IMG/VR virus record: IMGVR_UViG_3300011226_000006
Strand: one strand, 5' to 3'
DNA length: 11,225 nucleotides
Source of the DNA: a virus
Taxonomy: Duplodnaviria; Heunggongvirae; Uroviricota; Caudoviricetes
Part shown: positions 694 to 11,225 of the stretch, piece after piece
Layout: each line of letters begins with the position of its first letter
Position numbering within the stretch: the stretch's first letter is position 1
Position numbers and translations under genes: made by a program
The notes under the pieces: model-generated
Told to the model about the DNA's origin: nothing
What the model saw: the letters and a program-made list of their open reading frames with translations, nothing else
The model's database searches: none

Positions 694-826
694 TACACCT
701 GTACCGTTTATACCCAACCCACTGACGTATGGTGCAAGTCTTGATTTGAATGTAAGTTTGTTATCCGCGTTGGCTCAATGTAATAGGGATAAGTCTGATA
801 TCAGAATCATTGATAATCAAAATTGA
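578..826 (+). CDS. o-spanin (Rz1-like outer-membrane lipoprotein), begins inside Rz in the +1 frame and extends past it
   Basis: ORF 512-826 contains internal Met-Met at 578/581 followed by a signal-like stretch and a lipobox (LLPLLTG-C), then a Pro-rich mature region ([21 protein letters not shown]). The true start is probably ATG 578 or 581, not 512. Confidence 0.75.
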   Translation: MMIVLHVLCLLPLLTGCGSTRTVYVSIPKTPLPVSLTSDTPVPFIPNPLTYGASLDLNVSLLSALAQCNRDKSDIRIIDNQN

Positions 827-930
827 TGTATATTTTTATCGTCATGTAGATAACGAACAAGGTATTCCTCTGATACGTTTCGTTGAATACAGGTCATGGG
901 TAGGCATTGCAATATCGCTTCGAAATTATC

Positions 931-939
931 TGTGATAAT
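931..939 (+). promoter_or_regulatory. Candidate extended -10 promoter element (TGtGATAAT) for the AT-rich orphan gene
   Basis: tgtgataat at 931-939 matches TGnTATAAT in 8 of 9 positions; there is no convincing -35 at 17 bp spacing. It lies ~90 nt upstream of ATG 1030 in an AT-rich intergenic stretch. Motif-only call. Confidence 0.25.
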
Positions 940-1029
940 GCTCTTAATTTTGAATGTATGTATTTGGGAAAAGAGATAAAGTAATAGTCTAATTAATGGA
1001 GATATCCACAAAACACAAGAGGGACTATT

Positions 1030-1536
1030 ATGCGACCAGATCAATTTTTCTATCCAGATACTTTTACCTTTAATTCATCCACCTATTATGGTCAACGTGA
1101 CTCATCTAAAGGTCGATTGTATATTCTTATTGAAAGTGACTTATGTCCATTTAATATCGGCGATATCATTGTGCAAAAAATGGTCGACAGGGAAAGACTA
1201 TTTGAAGTGCTTGATTACGAGGTACAAATTAGTCTCGAGGCTGGTTGCCCTGGCTACTCACATTTGGCGGTATTGATAGTGAAGGCATTGGATGTAAAAG
1301 AGAAGCCGAAGCAGATTACGACCCATTTGACGTTTAACGGTGCTATTAATGCTGGTGGTGATTTTCAAGCCGGTAATGACAATTCGATCACAAAGAATAT
1401 AACCATTCAACAACTACATGATGCTATAGAGCATTGCAATGATCCAGAGGTTAAAAGCCTTTGGCAAAAGATATTGGAAAATCCGACGTTTGCTTCAATT
1501 GCTTCAATATTGGCAAAAAGTGCTTTAGGACAGTAA
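1030..1536 (+). CDS. Hypothetical protein, 168 aa, no family recognised; low-GC single-gene insert between lysis and packaging modules
   Basis: Long uninterrupted ORF in a ~32-35% G+C region (hand counts on lines 1081 and 1381), preceded by an SD-like AGAGGG about 7 nt upstream of the ATG and followed by a clean intrinsic terminator. No signal peptide or transmembrane segment is apparent; the C-terminus looks amphipathic (SLWQKILENPTFASIASILAKSALGQ). Confidence 0.75.
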   Translation: MRPDQFFYPDTFTFNSSTYYGQRDSSKGRLYILIESDLCPFNIGDIIVQKMVDRERLFEVLDYEVQISLEAGCPGYSHLAVLIVKALDVKEKPKQITTHLTFNGAINAGGDFQAGNDNSITKNITIQQLHDAIEHCNDPEVKSLWQKILENPTFASIASILAKSALGQ

Positions 1537-1545
1537 TTCATCAAG

Positions 1546-1567
1546 CCCCATTCAATATGGGGTTTTT
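1546..1567 (+). terminator. Rho-independent terminator downstream of the orphan gene
   Basis: Perfect 6-bp stem ccccat (1546-1551) / atgggg (1557-1562) with 5-nt loop tcaat, followed immediately by TTTTT (1563-1567), 10 nt after the stop codon. Confidence 0.7.
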
Positions 1568-1593
1568 ATGCTTATTATAAAGAGTTTTCTTCA

Positions 1594-1964: not shown

Positions 1965-2024
1965 GGGGCGGGTCAAATCCCTGTGACCTGACGTCTTCCG
2001 GACTGCCCGCCCCATCGTTTTTTT
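1965..2024 (+). repeat. GC-rich inverted repeat (ggggcggg ... cccgcccc) followed by a T7 run; candidate cos/packaging-site element or HNH terminator
   Basis: ggggcggg at 1965-1972 is the exact reverse complement of cccgcccc at 2006-2013 (33-nt spacer), followed by atcg and TTTTTTT (2018-2024). Lies in the HNH-TerS intergenic region. Confidence 0.3.
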
Positions 2025-2063
2025 ATACCCGCGAAAAATGAAATTTAACCAGGAGTGCCGCAT

Positions 2064-2558
2064 ATGGCTGGAACGGCGGGGCGTTCCGGGCGTCGCCCCA
2101 AGCCAACGGCGCGCAAGGCGCTGGCCGGAAACCCCGGCAAGCGAGCCCTGAATAAAGATGAACCTGTTTTTACGCCCATCAAAGGTGTTGAGCCACCGGA
2201 GTGGTTCGCTGAAGAAGATCTCCCTCTCGCCACGATCATGTGGCAACTGACAACCAAAGAACTCTGCGGTCAGGGCCTGCTGTGCGTGACTGACCTCGCG
2301 GTGCTTGAGCGGTGGTGCGTGGCCTACGAGTTCTGGCGACGTGCCGTGAAAAATATTGCCAGACAGGGCAACACCATCACCGGTGCAATGGGCGGTATGG
2401 TCAAAAATCCGGAGCTGACCGCCAAAAAAGAACAGGAGTCCGAGATGAGCAGTACGGGGTCAATGCTCGGACTCGACCCCAGCAGCCGCCAGCGTCTGAT
2501 TGGCCTGGCGGGGAAGAAGAAAGCCACTAACCCGTTTCTGAAAATTATCGAATCATGA
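2064..2558 (+). CDS. Terminase small subunit (P27-family-like)
   Basis: Translation [34 protein letters not shown]... has the Gly/Arg/Lys-rich N-terminus typical of P27-type small terminases. AGGAG at 2051-2055 is 8 nt before ATG 2064; the track start at 2055 is a GTG inside the SD and is less likely. Stop overlaps the TerL start (ATGA). Confidence 0.85.
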
Positions 2559-4225
2559 GCCGGAAATCTTACCCCAACGTAAATGCTGCAAATCAGTATG
2601 CCCGGGATGTCGTGCGCGGAAAGATTATTGCCTGCCAGTTTGTGATTCAGGCCTGCCAGCGCCATCTTGATGACCTGATGGCGGAAAAAAGTAAGTCGTT
2701 TCGTTACCGCTTCGACAAGGACCTGGCTGAACGGGCCGCCAAATTTATTCAGCTGTTGCCGCACACCAAGGGTGAGTGGGCATTTAAACGGATGCCCATC
2801 ACGCTGGAGCCGTGGCAGCTATTTGTGATCTGCTGTGCGTTTGGCTGGGTCAATAAAGGCACCCGGTTGCGCCGCTTCCGGGAGGTGTATACCGAAATTC
2901 CCCGTAAGAACGGCAAATCGGCAATCTCTGCCGGTGTTGCCCTGTATTGTTTTGCCTGTGATAACGAGTTCGGCGCGGAAGTGTATTCCGGTGCCACGAC
3001 GGAGAAACAGGCGTGGGAAGTCTTTCGTCCGGCACGACTGATGTGTAAACGCACACCCATGCTGACGGAAGCGTTCGGGATTGAGGTTAACGCCTCAAAC
3101 ATGAACCGTCCGGAGGATGGTGCGCGGTTTGAACCGCTGATCGGTAACCCCGGTGATGGTTCATCACCCCACTGTGCCGTGGTGGATGAATATCACGAGC
3201 ACGCCACAGATGCGCTTTACACCACGATGCTTACCGGGATGGGGGCGCGACGCCAGCCACTGATGTGGGCCATTACCACCGCCGGGTACAACATTGAGGG
3301 GCCGTGCTACGACAAACGGCGGGAAGTCATCGAGATGCTCAACGGCTCGGTGCCAAACGATGAACTGTTCGGGATCATCTATACCGTTGATGAAGGTGAC
3401 GACTGGACCGACCCGCAGGTGCTGGAAAAAGCCAATCCAAATATTGGCGTGTCGGTTTATCGCGAATTTTTGTTAAGTCAGCAGCAGCGTGCGAAAAATA
3501 ACGCCCGTCTGGCAAACGTCTTTAAAACAAAACACCTCAATATCTGGGTGTCGGCGCGTTCGGCGTATTTCAACCTGGTGAGCTGGCAGAGCTGCGAGGA
3601 TAAATCACTGACCCTTGAGCAGTTCGAGGGGCAGCCGTGGATTCTGGCCTTTGACCTGGCGCGTAAGCTGGATATGAACAGCATGGCGCGACTTTATACC
3701 CGCGAGATTGACGGTAAAACGCATTACTACAGTGTGGCCCCGCGTTTCTGGGTACCGTATGACACGGTGTACAGCGTCGAGAAAAATGAAGATCGCCGGA
3801 CAGCCGAACGCTTTCAGAAATGGGTGGAAATGGGCGTTCTGACTGTTACCGCTGGTGCGGAGGTGGATTATCGCTACATCCTCGAGGAGGCCAAAGCGGC
3901 GAACAAAATCAGCCCGGTCAGTGAGTCACCCATCGACCCCTTCGGGGCGACCGGGCTGTCGCATGACCTTGCTGATGAAGACCTGAACCCCATCACCATC
4001 ATTCAGAACTACACCAACATGTCCGATCCGATGAAAGAGCTGGAAGCGGCGATTGAATCGGGGCGCTTTCATCATGACGGCAATCCCATCATGACCTGGT
4101 GTATCGGCAACGTGGTCGGCAAAACCATTCCGGGTAACGATGATGTGGTGAAGCCTGTCAAGGAGCAGGCGGAAAACAAAATCGATGGTGCGGTNNNNNN
4201 NNNNGATGCTCTCTTAATTCTATGA
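2555..4225 (+). CDS. Terminase large subunit; C-terminus interrupted by an N-run
   Basis: 556-aa ORF with the ATPase-region signature ([21 protein letters not shown]..., VVDEYHEH...) and a nuclease-region C-terminal half. The last codons cross the 10-N run at 4195-4204, so the exact stop is uncertain: 4223-4225 as tracked, or 4215-4217 if the gap length is off by one like the others. Confidence 0.9.
4195..4204. other. Run of 10 N (assembly gap or masked bases) inside the terminase large-subunit 3' end
   Basis: Literal n characters in the sequence. Confidence 0.95.
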
Positions 4226-4383
4226 AATCACTAATTGCTGATGTTATCGGGCTGGCTGGTTTTGGCCTGCTTACGTGCGGGTTTTACCTGCAGTTTGGTA
4301 TGGCTCCGGCTCTGATGCTGTCCGGCGGTTTACTGCTGGTGGGCGCACTGGCTATGGCCAGAAGGGGGACGCGTGCTGCTTGA
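4222..4383 (+). CDS. Small predicted membrane protein (53 aa, two hydrophobic helices); not in the ORF track
   Basis: ATG 4222 to TGA 4381-4383 translates [56 protein letters not shown] overlaps the tracked terminase stop (tATGA) and the 3' end overlaps the portal GTG start by 11 nt. No SD of its own, so translation would rely on coupling. Confidence 0.4.
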   Translation: MKSLIADVIGLAGFGLLTCGFYLQFGMAPALMLSGGLLLVGALAMARRGTRAA

Positions 4384-5599
4384 TGCTCTGTTCAGAAGTA
4401 AATCACTGGAGAATCCTTCCACCCCGATAACCGGGGATGCCGTTGATACTGATGGGCTGTTCCGGGCAGACGTTTATGTCAGTCCTGAAACTGCGATGAA
4501 ACTGGCTGCGGTGTATTCCTGTATCTATGTCCTGTCTTCCAGCCTTGCCCAGATGCCGTTGCATGTTATGCGCAGGCACAATGGGAAGGTTGAGCCCGCA
4601 CGCGATCATCCGGCGTTTTATCTGGTTCATGATGAGCCCAATACCTGGCAAACCAGTTACAAATGGCGCGAACTGAAGCAACGTCACATCCTTGGCTGGG
4701 GGAATGGGTATACCTGGGTGAAACGTAATCGTCGCGGTGAAGTCATATCCCTGGATTGCTGTATGCCGTGGGAAACGACGTTGATGAATACTGGTGGCCG
4801 ATACACCTACGGTTTGTACAACGAATATGGGGCGTTTGCGATCAGCCCCGACGATATGATCCACATCCGTGCGCTGGGTAATAATCAGAAGATGGGGCTG
4901 AGTCCGATTATGCAACATGCCGAAACAATAGGCATGGGGATGAGCGGTCAGAAATACACAGAAAGCTTCTTCAGCGGTAATGCCCGTCCGGCGGGGATAG
5001 TATCCGTTAAAAGCGGACTCAATAAGGACAGCTGGGGCTGGCTTAAAGATCAGTGGCAGAAGGCATCGCAGGCGTTACGCAGCCAGGAAAACAAACCCAT
5101 GCTGCTGCCAGCCGATCTGGATTACAAGGCACTGACTGTGTCGCCAGTTGACGCTCAGATCATTGACATGATGAAACTGAACCGTTCAATGATTGCCGGT
5201 ATTTTCAATATTCCTGCGCACATGATTAATGACCTCGAAAAAGCCACCTTCTCCAATATTTCTGCGCAGGCGATTCAGTTTGTCCGCTACACGATGATGC
5301 CGTGGGTGACGAACTGGGAGCAGGAGCTTAACCGTCGCTTGTTTACCCGCGCTGAGTTAGCCGCCGGGTATTACGTCAGGTTCAATCTGACGGGGCTTTT
5401 ACGCGGAACTCCACAGGAGCGCGCGCAATTCTATCACTTCGCTATTACCGATGGATGGATGAGCCGTAATGAGGCCCGTGCATTCGAGGATATGAATCCG
5501 GTTGAAGGGCTAGATGAGATGCTGGTAAGCGTGAATGCTGCTAACCCGGCAGGAGATTTTAAGCCCCCAAAAAATGATGAGGGAAAAACCAATGAATGA
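4373..5599 (+). CDS. Portal protein (HK97 family)
   Basis: 408 aa, typical size and order (TerL -> portal -> protease -> capsid). GTG start at 4373 preceded by GGGGG at 4363-4367. No hydrophobic segments. Confidence 0.9.
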   Translation: MLLDALFRSKSLENPSTPITGDAVDTDGLFRADVYVSPETAMKLAAVYSCIYVLSSSLAQMPLHVMRRHNGKVEPARDHPAFYLVHDEPNTWQTSYKWRELKQRHILGWGNGYTWVKRNRRGEVISLDCCMPWETTLMNTGGRYTYGLYNEYGAFAISPDDMIHIRALGNNQKMGLSPIMQHAETIGMGMSGQKYTESFFSGNARPAGIVSVKSGLNKDSWGWLKDQWQKASQALRSQENKPMLLPADLDYKALTVSPVDAQIIDMMKLNRSMIAGIFNIPAHMINDLEKATFSNISAQAIQFVRYTMMPWVTNWEQELNRRLFTRAELAAGYYVRFNLTGLLRGTPQERAQFYHFAITDGWMSRNEARAFEDMNPVEGLDEMLVSVNAANPAGDFKPPKNDEGKTNE

Positions 5600-6194
5600 C
5601 CGTGAAATCCGTTGTTACAGCGGTGAGGTGCGTGCTGAGCGGCATGACGATAACCCTGCGCACATTATCGGTTATGGATCGGTGTTTGACTGTCGTTCTG
5701 AGCTGATATTTGGTTCATTCCGCGAAATCATCCGGCCCGGCGCTTTTGACGATGTGCTTGGTGATGATGTACGCGCACTGTTTAACCACGATCCTAATTT
5801 TATTCTTGGGCGTAGTGCAGCAGGCACGCTGAATCTTTCAGTTGATGAGCGCGGATTGCGCTATGACATCCAGGCTCCGGAGACACAGACCATTCGTGAT
5901 CTGGTGCTGGCCCCGATGCAACGTGGAGATATTAACCAGTCATCTTTTGCTTTCCGTGTCGCCCGTGACGGCGAGGAGTGGTATCAGGATGAGGACGGGG
6001 TTGTTATTCGCGAGATAACCCGCTTTTCCCGTCTGCTGGATGTCAGTCCTGTGACATATCCTGCCTATCAGGAGGCTGACTCGGCTGTTCGCTCCATGAA
6101 AGCATGGCAGGACGCGCGCAACAGCGGCGCGCTACAGAAAGCCATTAATCAACGTATGGCGCGTGAACGCGTCCTGACCCTTCTTAACGCGTAA
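5592..6194 (+). CDS. Prohead maturation protease (HK97 family)
   Basis: ORF 5535-6194; the likely start is ATG 5592 (MNDREIRCYSGEVRAERHDDNPAHIIGYGSVFD...), with GAGGG about 9 nt upstream, overlapping the portal stop by 8 nt. Position between portal and capsid is canonical. Confidence 0.9.
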   Translation: MNDREIRCYSGEVRAERHDDNPAHIIGYGSVFDCRSELIFGSFREIIRPGAFDDVLGDDVRALFNHDPNFILGRSAAGTLNLSVDERGLRYDIQAPETQTIRDLVLAPMQRGDINQSSFAFRVARDGEEWYQDEDGVVIREITRFSRLLDVSPVTYPAYQEADSAVRSMKAWQDARNSGALQKAINQRMARERVLTLLNA

Positions 6195-6204
6195 AGGAAA
6201 CATC

Positions 6205-7444
6205 ATGAAACTGCATGAACTGAAACAGAAACGTAATACTATCGCAACTGACATGCGCGCCCTGAATGAAAAAATTGGTGATAACGCATGGACGGAAGAG
6301 CAGCGCACTGAGTGGAACAAAGCAAAATCCGAACTGGAAGCTCTTGATGAACGAATTGCACGCGAAGAAGAACTGCGTCGTCAGGATCAGGCGTACATTG
6401 AAAGCAATAAGGAAGAGCAGCGTCAGAATCTTGATCCGGAAAACAATTCGCAACAGGATGAGAAACGAGCTCAGGTTTTTGATAAGTGGATGCGTCACGG
6501 TGCCAGTGAGCTGACATCAGAAGAGCGAAAGGCGTTGCGTGAACTTCGTGCCCAGGGTGTAGCTCAGGATGAAAAGGGCGGATATACCGTACCAGAAACA
6601 NNNNNNNNNNTTCCTGGCGAAAGTTGTTGAGAAGATGAAATCCTACGGTGGCATCGCCAGTGTGGCGCAGATTCTGACCACTTCTGACGGTCGCACCATG
6701 GAGTGGGCAACAGCTGATGGTACTTCCGAAGTTGGTGTTCTGCTGGGCGAAAATGAAGAAGCCGGTGAAGAAGACACCGATTTCGGTATGGGAAGTCTTG
6801 GGGCGCTCAAAATGACATCGAAAATCATTCGTGTGTCTAATGAGTTGCTGCAGGACAGCGCGATCGATATGGAAGCTTATCTTGCCCGTCGCATTGCTGA
6901 ACGTATTGGTCGTGGTGAAGCCCGTTATCTGATTCAGGGGACGGGGGCTGGTACGCCTAAACAACCCAAAGGGCTGGTCGCATCTGTGACCGGCACAACA
7001 CAGACTGCCGCGGCAAATACGGTGAAGTGGCAGGAAATTCTGGCTCTGAAACACAGCATTGATCCTGCATATCGTCGCGGACCGAAATTCCGCCTGGCGT
7101 TTAACGATAATACGCTGAAACTGATCAGTGAGATGGAAGACGGTCAGGGACGCCCTTTATGGTTGCCGGATATTGTTGGTGTGGCACCTGCTTCAGTGTT
7201 GAATGTACCGTATGTCATTGATCAGGAAATTGATGATATCGGGGCGGGGAAAAAATTCATGTTCTGTGGTGACTTTGATCGCTTCATTATCCGTCGTGTG
7301 CGATACATGATTCTTAAACGTCTGGTTGAGCGTTACGCGGAATATGATCAGACCGGTTTTCTGGCCTTCCATCGTTTTGACTGTATCCTGGAAGACACCT
7401 CTGCCATTAAAGCGCTGGTGGGGAAAGGTAGCGTTGGTGGTTGA
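6205..7444 (+). CDS. Major capsid protein, HK97-fold, with N-terminal coiled-coil delta (scaffold) domain; split by an N-run at 6601-6610
   Basis: Track ORFs 6205-6630 and 6569-7444 are two halves of one gene. The pre-gap part is a charged coiled-coil domain ending GGYTVPET; the post-gap part (FLAKVVEKMKSYGGIASVAQILTTSDGRTMEW...) reads as a capsid body. The frame changes by +1 across the N-run, so the gap length is not exact. AAGGA SD precedes ATG 6205. Confidence 0.85.
6601..6610. other. Run of 10 N inside the major capsid gene
   Basis: Literal n characters; causes an apparent frameshift between the two capsid ORF halves. Confidence 0.95.
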
Positions 7445-7470
7445 TTAGTCTTTTTACGTAATACAGCACG

Positions 7471-7490
7471 CCGCGTAATGCGGTTTTTTT
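7471..7490 (+). terminator. Weak intrinsic-terminator-like hairpin with T7 tail after the capsid gene
   Basis: ccgc (7471-7474) / gcgg (7480-7483) stem with gtaat loop, followed by TTTTTTT (7484-7490). The stem is only 4 bp, so this is at best a leaky terminator or attenuator. Confidence 0.35.
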
Positions 7491-7512
7491 GTGCCCGCGT
7501 TCTGGCGGGCAC
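7491..7512 (+). promoter_or_regulatory. Perfect 8-bp stem-loop immediately upstream of the connector-gene SD
   Basis: gtgcccgc (7491-7498) / gcgggcac (7505-7512) with 6-nt loop gttctg; AGGAGG (7513-7518) and ATG 7523 follow directly. Confidence 0.4.
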
Positions 7513-7522
7513 AGGAGGTTTT

Positions 7523-7850
7523 ATGCTGTTAAAAATGGAAGAGATTAAGCTTCAGCTCCGTCTGGATGATGANNNNNNNNNNNNNNNNNNNNNNNNNNNN
7601 NNNNNTGCTTGGTAAGGCCGCTCAGAGTCGTACGGAAAACTTCCTTAACCGTAAGTTGTATGCAACCGCAGATGACAGGCCTGCGGATGATCCTGATGGG
7701 CTTGTGATATCTGATGATGTGAAGCTGGCGCTTCTGCTACTTGTCAGCCATTTCTACGAAAACCGCTCAACGGTTACAGACGTTGAGAAAATGGAGTTGC
7801 CAATGAGTTTTAACTGGTTGGTTGCTCCTTATCGCCTTATACCACTATGA
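7523..7850 (+). CDS. Head-tail connector protein (gp6-like), interrupted by the N-run at 7573-7605
   Basis: ATG 7523 with AGGAGG 5 nt upstream translates MLLKMEEIKLQLRLDD..., then after the N-run ...LGKAAQSRTENFLNRKLYATADDRP...LLLLVSHFYENRSTVTDVEKMELP.... The frame changes by +1 across the gap. The track start at 7566 (MM...) is an artefact. Confidence 0.7.
7573..7605. other. Run of 33 N inside the connector gene
   Basis: Literal n characters. Confidence 0.95.
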
Positions 7851-8257
7851 AAATTCGTCAGGCGCAGACCAGCGCAACCTACATACTGCCGGACCCCGGC
7901 GAACTGAATAAACGCGTCCTGATCCGCCAGCGGGTGGATATGCCCGCGGATAACTTTGGCGTGGAGCCTCAATACCCGGTTACGTTCCGGACATGGGCGA
8001 AGGTTATCCAGACCAGTGCCACCACCTGGCAGGAAACCGCGCAGACAGGGGACGCCATCACCCATTACATCACCATTCGCTACCGCCGGGGGATCACCGC
8101 TGATTATGAGGTGGTCTGCGGTGACAGTGTGTACCGGGTGAAACGTCAGCGCGATCTGAACGGGGCGCGGCGCTTTCTGCTGCTGGAGTGTACGGAACTG
8201 GGCGAATTTACGCAGAGTCACGGAGGCAGCAATGGCGACTCCCTTTTTTCACGTTGA
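7847..8257 (+). CDS. Head-tail adaptor / head closure protein
   Basis: 136 aa; ATGA overlap with the connector stop. The pattern ...ITHYITIRYRRGITADYEVVCGDSVYRVKRQRDLNGARRFLLLECTE resembles head-tail joining proteins as I remember them. Confidence 0.75.
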   Translation: MKIRQAQTSATYILPDPGELNKRVLIRQRVDMPADNFGVEPQYPVTFRTWAKVIQTSATTWQETAQTGDAITHYITIRYRRGITADYEVVCGDSVYRVKRQRDLNGARRFLLLECTELGEFTQSHGGSNGDSLFSR

Positions 8258-8432
8258 TGTTCAGCAGCCCGCGGAGATGCGCTTTAACCGCGCCCGTGTC
8301 CGGCGGGCGTTTGTCACGATTGGGCAGCGTCATATGCGTGATGCCCGTCGGCTGGTGATGCGCCGTGCGCGGTCGGCACCGGGTGAAAATCCCGGTTATC
8401 AGACCGGACGTCTGGCTCGTTCGATTGGTTAG
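8232..8432 (+). CDS. HK97 gp10-like tail-completion protein, N-terminal part, ending at an in-frame TAG (probable disrupted gene)
   Basis: Strong SD GGAGG (8221-8225) 6 nt before ATG 8232. Translation ...RHMRDARRLVMRRARSAPGENPGYQTGRLARSIG stops at TAG 8430-8432 in the middle of what looks like the conserved gp10-family core. Confidence 0.6.
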   Translation: MATPFFHVDVQQPAEMRFNRARVRRAFVTIGQRHMRDARRLVMRRARSAPGENPGYQTGRLARSIG

Positions 8433-8738
8433 ATGGTGCCGAGAGCCAGTAAAAAGCGAGCCGGTTTTATGACACGCATTGCCCCTAACCAGCGCAACGG
8501 GAAGGGGAACCGGATGATCTCTGGTGACTTCTATCCGGCGTTTCTGTTTTTTGGTGTCCGGGGAGGAGCAAAACGTCGTCGTAGCCATCATCGTGGTGCA
8601 TCCGGTGGCAGCGGCTGGCGGCTGGCTCCACGTAATAACTTTATGGTGGAAACTCTTGAAAAGAACCGCAGCTGGACACGCTATTTTCTGGCGCGGGAAT
8701 TACGTAAATCACTGAAGCCGGAGCGACGACGCAGATGA
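8433..8738 (+). CDS. HK97 gp10-like tail-completion protein, C-terminal part (same frame, downstream of the TAG)
   Basis: Same reading frame as 8232-8432 and directly abutting the TAG. No SD precedes ATG 8433. Continues the family-like pattern (...DFYPAFLFFGVRGG...PRNNFMVETLEKNRSWTRYFLARELRK). Stop overlaps the next gene start (ATGA at 8735). Confidence 0.5.
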   Translation: MVPRASKKRAGFMTRIAPNQRNGKGNRMISGDFYPAFLFFGVRGGAKRRRSHHRGASGGSGWRLAPRNNFMVETLEKNRSWTRYFLARELRKSLKPERRRR

Positions 8739-9389
8739 AACTGACGCCTGTTATTGCTGCGCTGCGTGCCCGCTGCCCGTATTTTGAAAACCGGGTGGCA
8801 GGCGCGGCACAGTTCAAAAATCTGCCGGAGGTCGGAAAGCTGAGACTCCCGGCGGCGTATGTGGTACCGGGTGATGACTCTCCGGGAGAAAACAAAAGCC
8901 AGACCGACTACTGGCAGGAGCTGAAAGAGGGCTTCTCCGTGGTTGTCATACTGAGTAACGGGCGTGATGAGCGCGGTCAGTTTGCTTCGTATGATGTGGT
9001 GGACGATGTCCGGCAGATGCTCTTTAAGGCCCTGCTGGGCTGGAACCCGGAAGCGTGCGGTAACCCGATTACCTATGACGGCGGCACGCTGCTGGATCTG
9101 AATCGTCATGAGCTGATTTATCAGTTCGATTTTTCGGTCATCAGCGAGCTGACCGAAGACGATACCCGCCAGCAGGATGAGCTGAACAGTCTGGATGAAC
9201 TGCGAACGCTGGCGATTGATGTTGATTATTTCGATCCCGGTAACGGGCCTGACGGCGATATCGAACATCACACCGNNNNNNNNNNNNNNNNNNNNNNNNN
9301 NNNNNNNNNNNNNNNNNNNNNNNNNNNNNNNNNNNNNNNNNNNNNNNNNNNNNNNNNNNNATCACACCGAAATAACCCTTCCTTCCTGA
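8735..9389 (+). CDS. Mu-like tail-module protein (gp37-like, family unverified); 3' region crosses the 85-nt N-run
   Basis: ATG 8735 translates MKLTPVIAALRARCPYFENRVAGAAQFKNLPEVGKL...DGDIEHHT before the gap. After the gap the frame HTEITLPS-stop ends at 9387-9389. The 277-aa track ORF (8735-9568) is a gap-induced fusion with the next gene. Confidence 0.55.
9276..9360. other. Run of 85 N, flanked on both sides by the identical 9-mer atcacaccg
   Basis: Literal n characters; atcacaccg occurs at 9267-9275 and again at 9361-9369. Confidence 0.95.
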
Positions 9390-9397
9390 GAATCTTC

Positions 9398-9568
9398 ATG
9401 TTTGTGAAACCTGTTAAAGGGCGGTCAGTGCCTGACCCTGCCCGCGGTGACCTTTTGCCCACCGAAGGGCGAAATGTTGACGAGAACAACTACTGGCTGC
9501 GCCGTGAAGCAGCGGGTGATATCCGGCGCGTGAATAAAAAGGTGAACACCGATGACGACAAGCTTTAA
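9398..9568 (+). CDS. Small Mu-like tail-module protein (gp38-like, 56 aa; family unverified)
   Basis: ATG 9398 to TAA 9566-9568 translates MFVKPVKGRSVPDPARGDLLPTEGRNVDENNYWLRREAAGDIRRVNKKVNTDDDKL. Overlaps the sheath start by 17 nt. Hidden in the track inside the chimeric 8735-9568 ORF. No strong SD. Confidence 0.5.
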   Translation: MFVKPVKGRSVPDPARGDLLPTEGRNVDENNYWLRREAAGDIRRVNKKVNTDDDKL

Positions 9569-11048
9569 CACCATTCCGTCGAATACGCTGGTTCCGCTGT
9601 TTTATGCGGAAATGGATAACTCGGCGGCGAATACTGCACAGGACAGCGGGGCATCGTTGCTGATTGGTCACGCCAATAACGGTGCAGAGATTGTTGCCAA
9701 CAGTCTGGTGCTGATGCCGTCGGCAGACTATGCACGCCAGATTTGTGGTGCGGGAAGTCAGCTGGCGCGTATGGTCGAGGCTTATCGCCAGACTGACCCG
9801 TTTGGCGAGCTGTATGTGATTGCCGTTCCGGAAGCCACAGGCGCGGCGGCAACGGTTACGCTGACGGTGACCGGAGCAGCAACCGAAACCGGCACGGTGA
9901 ATGTGTATGTGGGACGTACCCGCGTGCAGGCACCGGTGACCAACGGCGATAACGTCACGACGATTGCCAGCAGTATCAAAGATGCCATCAATGCCGTTCC
10001 GGCCCTGCCGTTTACGGCCTCATCTTCGGCAGGCGTGGTCACACTGACCGCGCGTCATAAGGGGCTTTGCGGGAATGAAATTCCTGTCAGCCTCAATTAC
10101 TACGGCTTTGGTGGGGGCGAAGTGCTGCCAGCGGGTGTACAGATTGCCGTGGCGACGGGGACCGCCGGAACGGGCGCTCCGGTTCTCACCGGTGCGGTGG
10201 CTGCAATGGCGGATGAGCCGTTTGATTATATCGGTCTGCCGTTCAACGACACGGCCTCCGTTAACACGCTGGTGACCGAGATGAACGATACCAGCGGTCG
10301 CTGGAGCTATGCGCGTCAGCTGTATGGTCATGTGTATACGGCAAAGATCGGCACGCTGTCAGAACTGGTGACCGCAGGTGACCAGTTTAACCAGCAGCAC
10401 ATCACCCTGGCGGGGTACGAAAAAGAGACCCAGACGCCTGCCGACGAGCTGGCGGCAAGCCGTACCGCCCGCGCAGCGGTGTTTATCCGCAACGATCCGG
10501 CACGTCCCACGCAGACCGGTGAGCTGGTGGGTATGCTGCCTGCGCCGAAGGGGAAACGGTTCACGATGACCGAGCAGCAGACCCTGCTGTCTCATGGCGT
10601 GGCAACGGCGTATGTCGAAAGCGGGGTGCTGCGCATTCAGCGTGATGTCACCACGTACAGGAAAAATGCTTACGGGGTTGCGGATAACAGCTACCTCGAC
10701 AGCGAGACGCTGCATACCAGTGCGTATGTACTGCGCAAACTGAAATCCGTCATTACCAGTAAGTACGGGCGTCACAAGCTTGCCTGTGACGGTACCCGCT
10801 TTGGTCCCGGTCAGGCGATTGTCACCCCGGCGGTGATCAAAGGGGAACTGCTGGCAACCTACCGTCAGCTCGAGCGTGCGGGGATCGTGGAAAACTACGA
10901 GCTGTTCAAGCAGTACCTGGTTGTGGAGCGTGATGCCAGCGATCCGAACCGCCTGAACACGCTGTTCCCGCCTGACTATGTTAATCAGTTGCGTGTCTTT
11001 GCCGTGGTTAACCAGTTCCGTCTTCAGTATTCAGAGGAGTCTGCATAA
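9552..11048 (+). CDS. Contractile tail sheath protein (Mu gpL-like)
   Basis: 498 aa, the right size for a Mu-type sheath, located after the gp37/gp38-like genes and before a short tube-like gene. Gly/Ala/Thr/Val-rich and beta-rich composition. SD-like AAGGTG upstream of ATG 9552. Confidence 0.7.
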   Translation: MTTSFNTIPSNTLVPLFYAEMDNSAANTAQDSGASLLIGHANNGAEIVANSLVLMPSADYARQICGAGSQLARMVEAYRQTDPFGELYVIAVPEATGAAATVTLTVTGAATETGTVNVYVGRTRVQAPVTNGDNVTTIASSIKDAINAVPALPFTASSSAGVVTLTARHKGLCGNEIPVSLNYYGFGGGEVLPAGVQIAVATGTAGTGAPVLTGAVAAMADEPFDYIGLPFNDTASVNTLVTEMNDTSGRWSYARQLYGHVYTAKIGTLSELVTAGDQFNQQHITLAGYEKETQTPADELAASRTARAAVFIRNDPARPTQTGELVGMLPAPKGKRFTMTEQQTLLSHGVATAYVESGVLRIQRDVTTYRKNAYGVADNSYLDSETLHTSAYVLRKLKSVITSKYGRHKLACDGTRFGPGQAIVTPAVIKGELLATYRQLERAGIVENYELFKQYLVVERDASDPNRLNTLFPPDYVNQLRVFAVVNQFRLQYSEESA

Positions 11049-11225
11049 TGGCCCGTATCGGGGGAACCTGTTATTTCAAAATTGACGGTCAGCAGCTATC
11101 GCTGACCGGCGGCATTGAGGTGCCCATGAACAGGACGGTCAATGATGACATCATCGGCCTGGACGGTTCAGTGGACCGCAAGGAAACTCACCGTGCGCCT
11201 TATGTCAAAGGGACCTTCAAGGTGC
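11048..11225 (+). CDS. Putative tail tube protein (Mu gpM-like); 3' end lies outside the window
   Basis: ATG 11048 overlaps the sheath stop (TAATG); GAGGAG at 11034-11039. Translation MARIGGTCYFKIDGQQLSLTGGIEVPMNRTVNDDIIGLDGSVDRKETHRAPYVKGTFKV continues to the window edge. Assignment rests mainly on position after the sheath. Confidence 0.55.
   Translation, partial: MARIGGTCYFKIDGQQLSLTGGIEVPMNRTVNDDIIGLDGSVDRKETHRAPYVKGTFKV

What the first reader, a model, noticed from the sequence alone, without database searches (positions are those of the whole stretch)
8232..8738. In-frame TAG (8430-8432) splits a gp10-like tail-completion gene; ATG follows immediately with no SD
ORFs 8232-8432 and 8433-8738 are in the same frame and separated only by one TAG. 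Together (~167 aa) they read like a single HK97 gp10-family protein: the upstream piece ends ...TGRLARSIG and the downstream piece continues with ...DFYPAFLFFG...PRNNFMVETLEKNR.... Only the first ATG has a strong SD (GGAGG). This looks like a nonsense mutation in a virion-assembly gene, implying a defective or decaying prophage, a sequencing error, or a gene that needs amber suppression or read-through. Any of these changes how the element should be interpreted.
Basis: partly seen in the sequence, partly recalled or inferred. Interest (0 to 1): 0.55.

Follow-up and report, generated by a model that had tools for sequence, protein, structure and literature searches.

The report
Lone amber codon in prophage tail-completion gene
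A single base change (TAC to TAG) breaks one otherwise normal virion-assembly gene of an SfV-like prophage; it occurs in no other public sequence searched, is either an error in a gappy draft assembly or a very recent mutation, and is ordinary in both cases.

Summary
ORFs 8232-8432 and 8433-8738 share a frame and are separated only by TAG at 8430-8432.

Every relative examined has one uninterrupted ORF of about 168 aa here. This holds for phages SfV, SfI, SfII, SfIV, ST64B and phiP27, and for homologues across Enterobacterales down to about 50% identity. Codon 67 is Tyr in them: TAC in 87 and TAT in 38 of 125 sequences, never TAG. It ends the conserved motif LARSIGY.

The TAG allele was not found in 5,426 complete E. 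coli genomes, GTDB species representatives, IMG/VR or JGI metagenomes. Two independent samples carry a prophage that differs from the window by only 9 SNPs and one 6-bp indel across all 11 kb. Both have TAC.

Those nine private differences look unselected: 6 of 8 coding changes are missense or nonsense. Their spectrum is unnatural, with 7 transversions to 2 transitions and three C<->G changes. The window also holds four scaffold-gap N runs.

I conclude the TAG is a private, unprogrammed one-base lesion. A consensus error in a low-quality draft is slightly favoured (about 0.5) over a very recent real nonsense mutation (about 0.43). Suppression, read-through or a true two-gene arrangement is unlikely (about 0.05).

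The "HK97 gp10" label has only remote support. The direct match is PHROG 879, "tail completion or Neck1 protein".

The parts
8232..8738 (+). Homologue of SfV orf8 (tail completion / Neck1 protein, PHROG 879). It is 168 codons long and interrupted at codon 67.
   Evidence: It is collinear with the single 507-bp ORFs of SfV NC_003444 6285-6791 and E. coli WP_000224836. The repaired protein matches PHROG 879 over its full length, E 5.6e-95.
8430..8432 (+). Amber codon TAG in place of Tyr67 (TAC). The change is C>G at 8432.
   Evidence: In 125 relatives the base is C in 87, T in 38, and never G or A. Tyr67 is at least 90% conserved in a 35-sequence alignment and ends the motif LARSIGY.
8433..8435 (+). 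ATG immediately after the TAG. This is the native internal Met68 codon of this lineage, not a designed start.
   Evidence: Intact relatives read Y67-M68. Across the family the position varies (M/Y/R/W/F/A/V). No SD precedes it.
8222..8226 (+). Shine-Dalgarno GGAGG serving the true start at 8232.
   Evidence: Read directly from the sequence.
7847..8257 (+). Upstream neighbour, the head closure protein Hc1 (Phage_HCP). It overlaps the orf8 start by 26 nt, as in relatives.
   Evidence: PHROG 25, E 5.5e-50. Pfam PF05521 is recorded on the equivalent gene.
8735..9275 (+). Downstream neighbour, the tail terminator gene. Its start overlaps the orf8 stop (ATGA). Its 3' end runs into an N gap.
   Evidence: Pfam PF23840 is recorded on the equivalent gene.
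9276..9360 (.). An 85-N scaffold gap flanked by a duplicated 9-mer, ATCACACCG. It creates the false 277-aa ORF at 8735-9568.
7573..7605 (.). A 33-N scaffold gap in the head-tail adaptor gene. It replaces 29 bp present in relatives.
6601..6610 (.). A 10-N scaffold gap inserted in the major capsid gene with no sequence missing. It creates a false frameshift (ORFs 6205-6630 and 6569-7444).
4195..4204 (.). A 10-N scaffold gap replacing 73 bp at the 3' end of the large terminase gene.

Best explanation
The window is the late (lysis, packaging, head, neck, tail) region of an SfV-like temperate myovirus prophage of E. coli/Shigella. The stretch 8232-8738 is one gene. It is the homologue of SfV orf8, a small basic 168-aa 'tail completion / Neck1' protein encoded between the head-closure and tail-terminator genes. 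In this record a single C>G change at 8432 turns the conserved Tyr67 codon TAC into amber TAG. The ATG that follows is simply the next native codon, Met68. The stop is private to this sequence and is not a programmed feature.

I favour the view that the G is a consensus error of a fragmentary, scaffolded draft assembly, and that the real prophage carries TAC and an intact gene. It cannot be separated from a very recent real mutation without the reads.

Shown: the single-gene status, the Tyr codon in all relatives, the uniqueness of the TAG, the near-identical intact twins, and the odd spectrum of the window's private differences. Inferred: that the cause is error rather than mutation.
For: One gene:
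- SfV and two E. coli chromosomes have a single 507-bp ORF, and codon 67 is TAC.
- All 29 phage records with a homologue match as one continuous stretch.
- Thirty-four homologues down to about 50% identity are 165-181 aa, with Tyr or Phe at that column.

The TAG is unique:
- There are 0 exact matches in E. coli complete genomes; 557 records match the 60-mer, none at 100%.
- There are 0 matches in GTDB representatives, 0 in IMG/VR and 0 in JGI metagenomes.
- The 66-aa and 101-aa products do occur in the 15-billion-protein collection. In every contig shown (10 of the 24 read for the 66-aa product, all 7 for the 101-aa product) they are contig-end truncations, not stop-bounded ORFs.

Near-identical twins:
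- L148 (GCA_048935615.1) and L149 (SRR30197789) differ from the window at exactly the same sites over the whole window equivalent.
- They differ from the window by 9 SNPs and one 6-bp indel, and both have TAC.

The private differences look like noise:
- Transitions to transversions are 2:7, and 3 of 9 are C<->G.
- Natural differences at this locus show ts:tv of 1.7-3.3 and 2.5-6% C<->G (Fisher p 0.002-0.03 and 0.003-0.04).
- Six of 8 coding changes are missense or nonsense, as expected without selection.
- Given 8 random coding changes, at least one stop is expected with P about 0.25.

Draft quality:
- Four N runs lie within 11 kb. One 10-N run has nothing missing, and one 85-N run is flanked by a 9-bp overlap. 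These are typical unmerged scaffold joins.
Against: No reads are available, so an error cannot be demonstrated. Position 8432 lies mid-contig, more than 800 bp from either N gap, not at a low-coverage contig end. Prophage genes under relaxed selection also accumulate changes with dN/dS near 1, and nonsense mutations in prophage structural genes are common. Consensus substitution errors are rare in assemblies with adequate depth. With only nine differences, the spectrum argument is statistically modest.
Confidence: 0.5

Rival explanations
1. The TAG is a genuine, very recent nonsense mutation (Tyr67 to amber) in the prophage's tail-completion gene. Translation stops after 66 residues, inside the conserved N-terminal domain. 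At best an untethered 101-aa C-terminal fragment is made by reinitiation at the adjacent ATG. The prophage still lysogenises and lyses but yields few or no infectious particles. It would be an early step of prophage domestication or decay.
For: The TAG is unambiguously in the record, mid-contig. Codon 67 sits in the most conserved motif, and the region homologous to PF04883 spans about residues 10-80, so truncation should inactivate the protein. The other private changes include radical missense changes in the terminase (C362W) and the portal (T242P), which fits relaxed selection on the whole late operon. Loss of tail-completion proteins blocks head-tail joining or strongly lowers infectivity in P2, SPP1, TP901-1, lambda and Mu (PMC11784142).
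Against: No other sequence in any collection searched shares the allele, so the mutation, if real, is confined to this isolate. All other genes in the window are intact once the N gaps are discounted. The private SNP spectrum (7 of 9 transversions, 3 of 9 C<->G) is unlike natural variation at this locus.
Confidence: 0.43
2. The stop is real and tolerated. One route is natural UAG read-through or a host amber-suppressor tRNA. The other is termination-reinitiation at TAG-ATG giving two fragments that complement each other. Either would supply enough functional protein, since this protein class may be needed in very few copies per virion.
For: TAG is directly abutted by ATG. The T5 homologue-class protein appears to be monomeric in the virion, so little protein may suffice (PMC11784142).
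Against: The stop is not conserved in any relative: 0 of 125 in the census and 0 in four collections. The window encodes no tRNA. Met68 is not conserved in the family, so the ATG is incidental. The break falls within a predicted strand (residues 66-68) of the conserved core.
Confidence: 0.05
3. There are two separate, independently conserved genes of 66 aa and 101 aa.
For: PHROG 8673 (unknown function) matches only residues 80-167. Short 60-130-aa products exist in the protein collections.
Against: Every full-length relative and every isolated phage has one ORF. The 66-aa and 101-aa products inspected are truncated by contig ends exactly at the C/T polymorphic base, not by stops. The short PHROG begins at residue 80, not 68.
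Confidence: 0.01

Closest known systems
SfV orf8 (NP_599040.1) and its orthologues in SfI, SfII, SfIV, ST64B (sb10) and phiP27; PHROG 879 'tail completion or Neck1 protein'
   Same: It holds the same position between the head closure (Hc1) and tail terminator genes. It has the same length of 168 aa. It is about 91% identical to SfV orf8 and 98% to E. coli prophage copies. It matches the PHROG profile over its full length.
   Different: The window copy has TAG where all of these have a Tyr codon.
HK97 gp10-like family (Pfam PF04883, TIGR01725): tail completion proteins (TCP/Ne1) such as lambda gpZ, SPP1 gp16.1 and the Mu and P2 TCPs
   Same: It is a small protein encoded between head-closure and tail-terminator genes. 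Remote relatives of the orf8 family pass the PF04883 threshold. The predicted fold's best viral matches are annotated HK97 gp10. TCP is equated with Ne1 in PMC11784142.
   Different: The orf8 protein itself has no direct Pfam or NCBIfam hit, even at E<=1. It carries a basic, Gly-rich insert of about 50 residues (residues 86-134) that is predicted to be disordered. No solved structure matches.
Classical amber (am) mutations in phage morphogenesis genes, and pseudogenised structural genes of cryptic prophages
   Same: A Tyr codon TAC is converted to TAG by one transversion in an essential virion gene.
   Different: There is no evidence here of laboratory selection, of a suppressor host, or of the multiple lesions typical of cryptic prophages. 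The lesion may not exist in the organism at all.

Membership tests
SfV orf8 / PHROG 879 tail completion or Neck1 protein | Full-length similarity to the family profile | tested here: met
   The repaired 168-aa sequence matches phrog_879 at 1-168 of 168, E 5.6e-95. It is 91-98% identical to SfV and E. coli copies.
SfV orf8 / PHROG 879 tail completion or Neck1 protein | Gene order: head-tail adaptor, head closure, this gene, tail terminator, DUF2635, sheath | tested here: met
   The window ORFs and the annotated relatives are collinear.
SfV orf8 / PHROG 879 tail completion or Neck1 protein | Single uninterrupted ORF of about 165-180 aa | tested here: not met
   The window copy is interrupted by TAG at codon 67. 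All relatives are uninterrupted. It is therefore a disrupted, or mis-sequenced, copy of a family member.
SfV orf8 / PHROG 879 tail completion or Neck1 protein | Conserved motif L-A-R-S-I-G-Y/F | tested here: met
   L61, S64, I65 and G66 are invariant and present in the window. Only the final Tyr is replaced by the stop.
HK97 gp10-like (Pfam PF04883 / TIGR01725) | The protein scores above the family's gathering threshold | tested here: not met
   The whole protein and both fragments give no Pfam hit at E<=1. There is no NCBIfam hit.
HK97 gp10-like (Pfam PF04883 / TIGR01725) | Homology demonstrable through intermediates | tested here: inconclusive
   Twenty remote relatives found with the orf8 profile were scanned. 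Two pass the PF04883 cut-off (23.5 and 22.8 bits against 21.4), one scores 21.3, and two are sub-threshold. One other family (Vps4_C) appears once, below its cut-off. This is suggestive of a divergent branch, not proof.
HK97 gp10-like (Pfam PF04883 / TIGR01725) | Shared fold | tested here: inconclusive
   The AF2 model is poor (mean pLDDT 62, residues 86-134 below 50). After one close homologue, the BFVD hits are dominated by 'HK97-gp10' proteins, but with TM scores of only 0.44-0.53 and E 0.02-1. The PDB gives nothing.
Programmed stop-codon read-through or suppressor-dependent gene | Stop codon conserved at the site in relatives | tested here: not met
   Zero of 125 relatives carry it. There are 0 exact matches in four collections.
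Programmed stop-codon read-through or suppressor-dependent gene | Suppressor tRNA encoded nearby | tested here: not met
   ARAGORN finds no tRNA in the window. The rest of the genome is not available.
Decaying / cryptic prophage | Several independent inactivating lesions (frameshifts, deletions, IS insertions) in essential genes | tested here: not met
   Within the window, every other apparent disruption coincides with an N-run scaffold gap. All other genes are full length compared with the intact twins. Regions outside the window were not testable.

The most novel reading that the evidence does not exclude
The amber codon is real and the phage is still viable. Tail-completion proteins may be needed in as little as one copy per virion. 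Basal UAG read-through, or reinitiation at the abutting ATG with complementation between the fragments, could then supply enough activity. That would make this a naturally 'leaky' amber mutant that throttles virion infectivity.
Probability: 0.04. Interest if true: 0.3.

Novelty: already known. Interest (0 to 1): 0.08.

Why it matters
It matters only for annotation. The locus should be annotated as one tail-completion/Neck1 gene, either as a pseudogene or marked as a possible sequencing error, not as two hypothetical proteins. If the TAG is real, this particular prophage copy probably cannot make fully infectious particles. That would affect predictions of its mobility but reveals no new biology. 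The practical lesson is that this window is a gappy draft. Its N runs and private SNPs should not be read as biological frameshifts, fusions or decay.

Tried and rejected
1. A possible hot spot at 8432. Look-ups of the 66-aa and 101-aa products showed the 66-aa product at contig ends in many public assemblies (10 of 24 contigs inspected; listed in 364 index blocks), stopping at the base before 8432. The 101-aa product was found on 7 contigs, all starting at the base after it. This briefly suggested a hypermutable or error-prone site. The census showed instead a common synonymous C/T (TAC/TAT) polymorphism in an otherwise identical context. Samples holding two related prophages or strains therefore fork there. 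This is an effect of how I searched, not TAG and not a hot spot for G.

2. Direct family assignment. Pfam, NCBIfam, a PDB sequence profile and a PDB Foldseek search gave nothing.

3. Finding the source assembly. I looked up the window's private protein variants (TerS A133S, protease E174D). Neither is on record, so no clonal relatives could be used to test whether the TAG is inherited.

4. The sheath variant S412C first looked private against the IMG/VR panel. It is shared with many contigs, including the twins. 'Private' was therefore redefined as a difference from the twins.

The 98%-identical P0002 was used instead.

Full report
**Observation.**
- ATG lies at 8232, with GGAGG five bases upstream.
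- An in-frame TAG lies at 8430-8432, and ATG follows at 8433 with no Shine-Dalgarno-like sequence before it.
- The stop is at 8736-8738.
- The two pieces are 66 and 101 codons.

**Context.** The window is the late region of an SfV-like temperate myovirus prophage of E. coli/Shigella.
- Window positions 1997-11225 match phage SfV at 97.7% identity, with 81% of the window covered.
- More than a thousand complete E. coli genomes match the 1.4 kb around the finding at 90-99%.
- The gene order is lysis genes, HNH endonuclease, small and large terminase, portal, HK97-type protease, major capsid, head-tail adaptor, head closure, the gene in question, tail terminator, DUF2635, sheath.

**It is one gene.** In SfV (orf8, 6285-6791) and in two E. 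coli chromosomes, the stretch equivalent to 8232-8738 is a single 507-bp ORF of 168 aa.
- Codon 67 there is TAC (Tyr), so the window differs by C>G at 8432.
- All 29 phage records that hold a homologue match as one continuous stretch. They include SfI, SfII, SfIV, ST64B, phiP27, the Yersinia YeP phages and Pantoea AH07.
- Thirty-four homologues from Klebsiella, Salmonella, Erwinia, Pantoea, Serratia, Dickeya and Hamiltonella, down to about 50% identity, are 165-181 aa.
- Residue 67 is Tyr in at least 90% of them and otherwise Phe. It closes the most conserved motif, L-A-R-S-I-G-Y.
- Residue 68, the 'new start', is not conserved (M/Y/R/W/F/A/V). The ATG is therefore an incidental native codon.

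**The TAG is unique.**
- A 60-mer centred on it matches 557 complete E. coli records, none at 100%.
- Exact patterns that include the TAG give no match in GTDB species representatives, IMG/VR or JGI metagenomes.
- A pattern with N at 8432 retrieved at least 120 IMG/VR loci. Together with the annotated loci, the base is C in 87 and T in 38, and never G or A.

**A false lead.** Exact look-ups of the 66-aa and 101-aa products returned many contigs.
- In every contig inspected the product sits at a contig end. Contigs stop at ...GGTTA or start at ATGGTG....
- The cause is the common synonymous TAC/TAT polymorphism in an otherwise identical context. It forks assembly graphs of samples that hold two related prophages or strains.
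- None of these contigs carries TAG.

**Near-identical twins.** A lookup of the window's AT-rich accessory ORF (1030-1536) retrieved two independent samples, NCBI GCA_048935615.1 and Logan SRR30197789.
- Their prophages differ from the window at exactly the same sites over the whole window equivalent, so they agree with each other wherever aligned.
- Both have an intact 168-aa gene with TAC.
- The window differs from them by one 6-bp in-frame deletion at 1642 and by nine SNPs (effects):

| Position | Change | Effect |
|---|---|---|
| 16 | A>T | not assigned |
| 1578 | C>T | not assigned |
| 2460 | G>T | TerS A133S |
| 3640 | C>G | TerL C362W |
| 5096 | A>C | portal T242P |
| 6113 | G>C | protease E174D |
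| 7249 | T>G | capsid, synonymous |
| 8432 | C>G | Y67* |
| 10985 | C>T | sheath, synonymous |

- Six of the eight coding changes are missense or nonsense. Random substitution in these genes gives about 76% non-synonymous changes and 3.5% stops, so at least one stop among eight changes has P about 0.25.
- The spectrum is 2 transitions to 7 transversions, with three C<->G changes.
- Natural differences between relatives at this locus run 1.7-3.3 transitions per transversion, with 2.5-6% C<->G. Fisher p is 0.002-0.03 for ts:tv and 0.003-0.04 for C<->G.

**Assembly quality.** The window contains four N runs.
- One 10-N run sits in the capsid gene with no base missing.
- One 85-N run is flanked by the duplicated 9-mer ATCACACCG.
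- One 33-N run replaces 29 bp.
- One 10-N run replaces 73 bp.
- These are unmerged scaffold joins of a fragmentary draft. From my own knowledge, a 10-N minimum gap is typical of early short-read scaffolders such as Velvet.
- They also account for every other apparent lesion in the window: the 'split' capsid gene, the shortened terminase, and the 277-aa 'fusion' ORF at 8735-9568.

**Interpretation.** The stop is a private, unselected, one-base lesion in an ordinary single-copy virion gene. The data cannot separate a consensus error from a very recent real mutation.
- For error, which I put slightly ahead at about 0.5: the unnatural spectrum of all the private differences, the poor assembly, and the two independent twins agreeing at every site where the window differs.
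- For a real mutation, about 0.43: the site is mid-contig, and prophage late genes do decay.
- Suppression, read-through or a working two-piece gene, about 0.05: this lacks support because the stop is not conserved, the window has no tRNA, the ATG is incidental, and the break falls in a predicted strand (residues 66-68) of the conserved core.
- Two independent genes is effectively excluded.

**Consequences if the TAG is real (inference).** Translation would end after 66 residues. Reinitiation at the abutting ATG could give a 101-aa fragment and preserve coupling into the tail terminator gene, whose ATG overlaps the orf8 stop. Without reinitiation, polarity on the tail genes is possible. Loss of tail-completion proteins prevents head-tail joining in P2, SPP1 and TP901-1. 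In lambda (gpZ) and Mu it gives normal-looking but poorly infectious virions (PMC11784142). The prophage would then be non-productive or weakly productive, while lysogeny and lysis would be unaffected.

**Family.** The direct, strong match is PHROG 879, 'tail completion or Neck1 protein'.
There is no Pfam or NCBIfam hit and no PDB sequence or fold match.
- It is plausible as a remote relationship. A profile search of 1.8 billion representatives found 172 relatives.
- Of 20 relatives scanned, two pass the PF04883 cut-off, one scores 0.1 bit below it, and two are sub-threshold. The only other family reported is a single sub-threshold Vps4_C hit.
- The PF04883-like region maps to about residues 10-80, so the TAG cuts inside it.
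- The AlphaFold model is weak (pLDDT 62, residues 86-134 disordered). Its best viral matches after a close homologue are proteins annotated HK97-gp10, with TM scores of 0.44-0.53.

**Verdict.** It is a lone TAC>TAG change, possibly not present in the organism at all. Interest is low.

Noticed in passing
window 4195-4204, 6601-6610, 7573-7605, 9276-9360: Four N runs (10, 10, 33 and 85 bases) are scaffold gaps of a draft assembly. They create false features: a 'frameshifted' major capsid gene (ORFs 6205-6630 and 6569-7444), a large terminase short by 21 codons, an interrupted head-tail adaptor, and a 277-aa 'fusion' ORF at 8735-9568 spanning the tail terminator and DUF2635 genes. The 85-N gap is flanked by a duplicated ATCACACCG.
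   Followed up: yes
window 786-1593 (ORF 1030-1536, +): An AT-rich insert (GC 33-39% against about 55% in the flanks) lies between the lysis cassette and the HNH endonuclease gene. It encodes a 168-aa protein that matches PHROG 5789 (unknown function) and has no PADLOC hit. A terminator-like hairpin follows it. The E. coli 98207 prophage has only 91 bp here, whereas the twins L148 and L149 carry the insert. It looks like a moron of unknown function.
   Followed up: partly
window 8432 equivalent in L006-L022 and many other public contigs: Many public assemblies have contigs that end exactly one base before this position, and a few that start one base after it. The cause is a common synonymous TAC/TAT polymorphism within an otherwise identical context of at least 50 bp. 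It forks assembly graphs when two related prophages or strains are present.
   Followed up: yes
window 1642 (HNH endonuclease gene 1594-1938): A private in-frame 6-bp deletion within an ACCACCAC repeat removes two Thr codons (RRTTTDP becomes RRTDP). The five relatives that matched the flanks all have the longer form.
   Followed up: partly
window 3640 and 5096: Two private radical missense changes occur in essential genes: TerL C362W (C>G) and portal T242P (A>C). Both are absent from 68 and 14 relatives respectively and from the near-identical twins. Like the TAG, they may be errors or signs of relaxed selection.
   Followed up: partly
window 8735-9275: The tail terminator gene (Pfam PF23840 on the equivalent gene of relatives) has as its best PHROG match phrog_209, which is labelled 'portal protein'. 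This label clashes with the Pfam family and the gene's position and is probably a misleading PHROG annotation. PHROG 25 ('head closure Hc1', 286 positions) also extends over the orf8 region, which suggests that some phages have Hc1-orf8 fusions or that the profile was built from mis-called genes.
   Followed up: no
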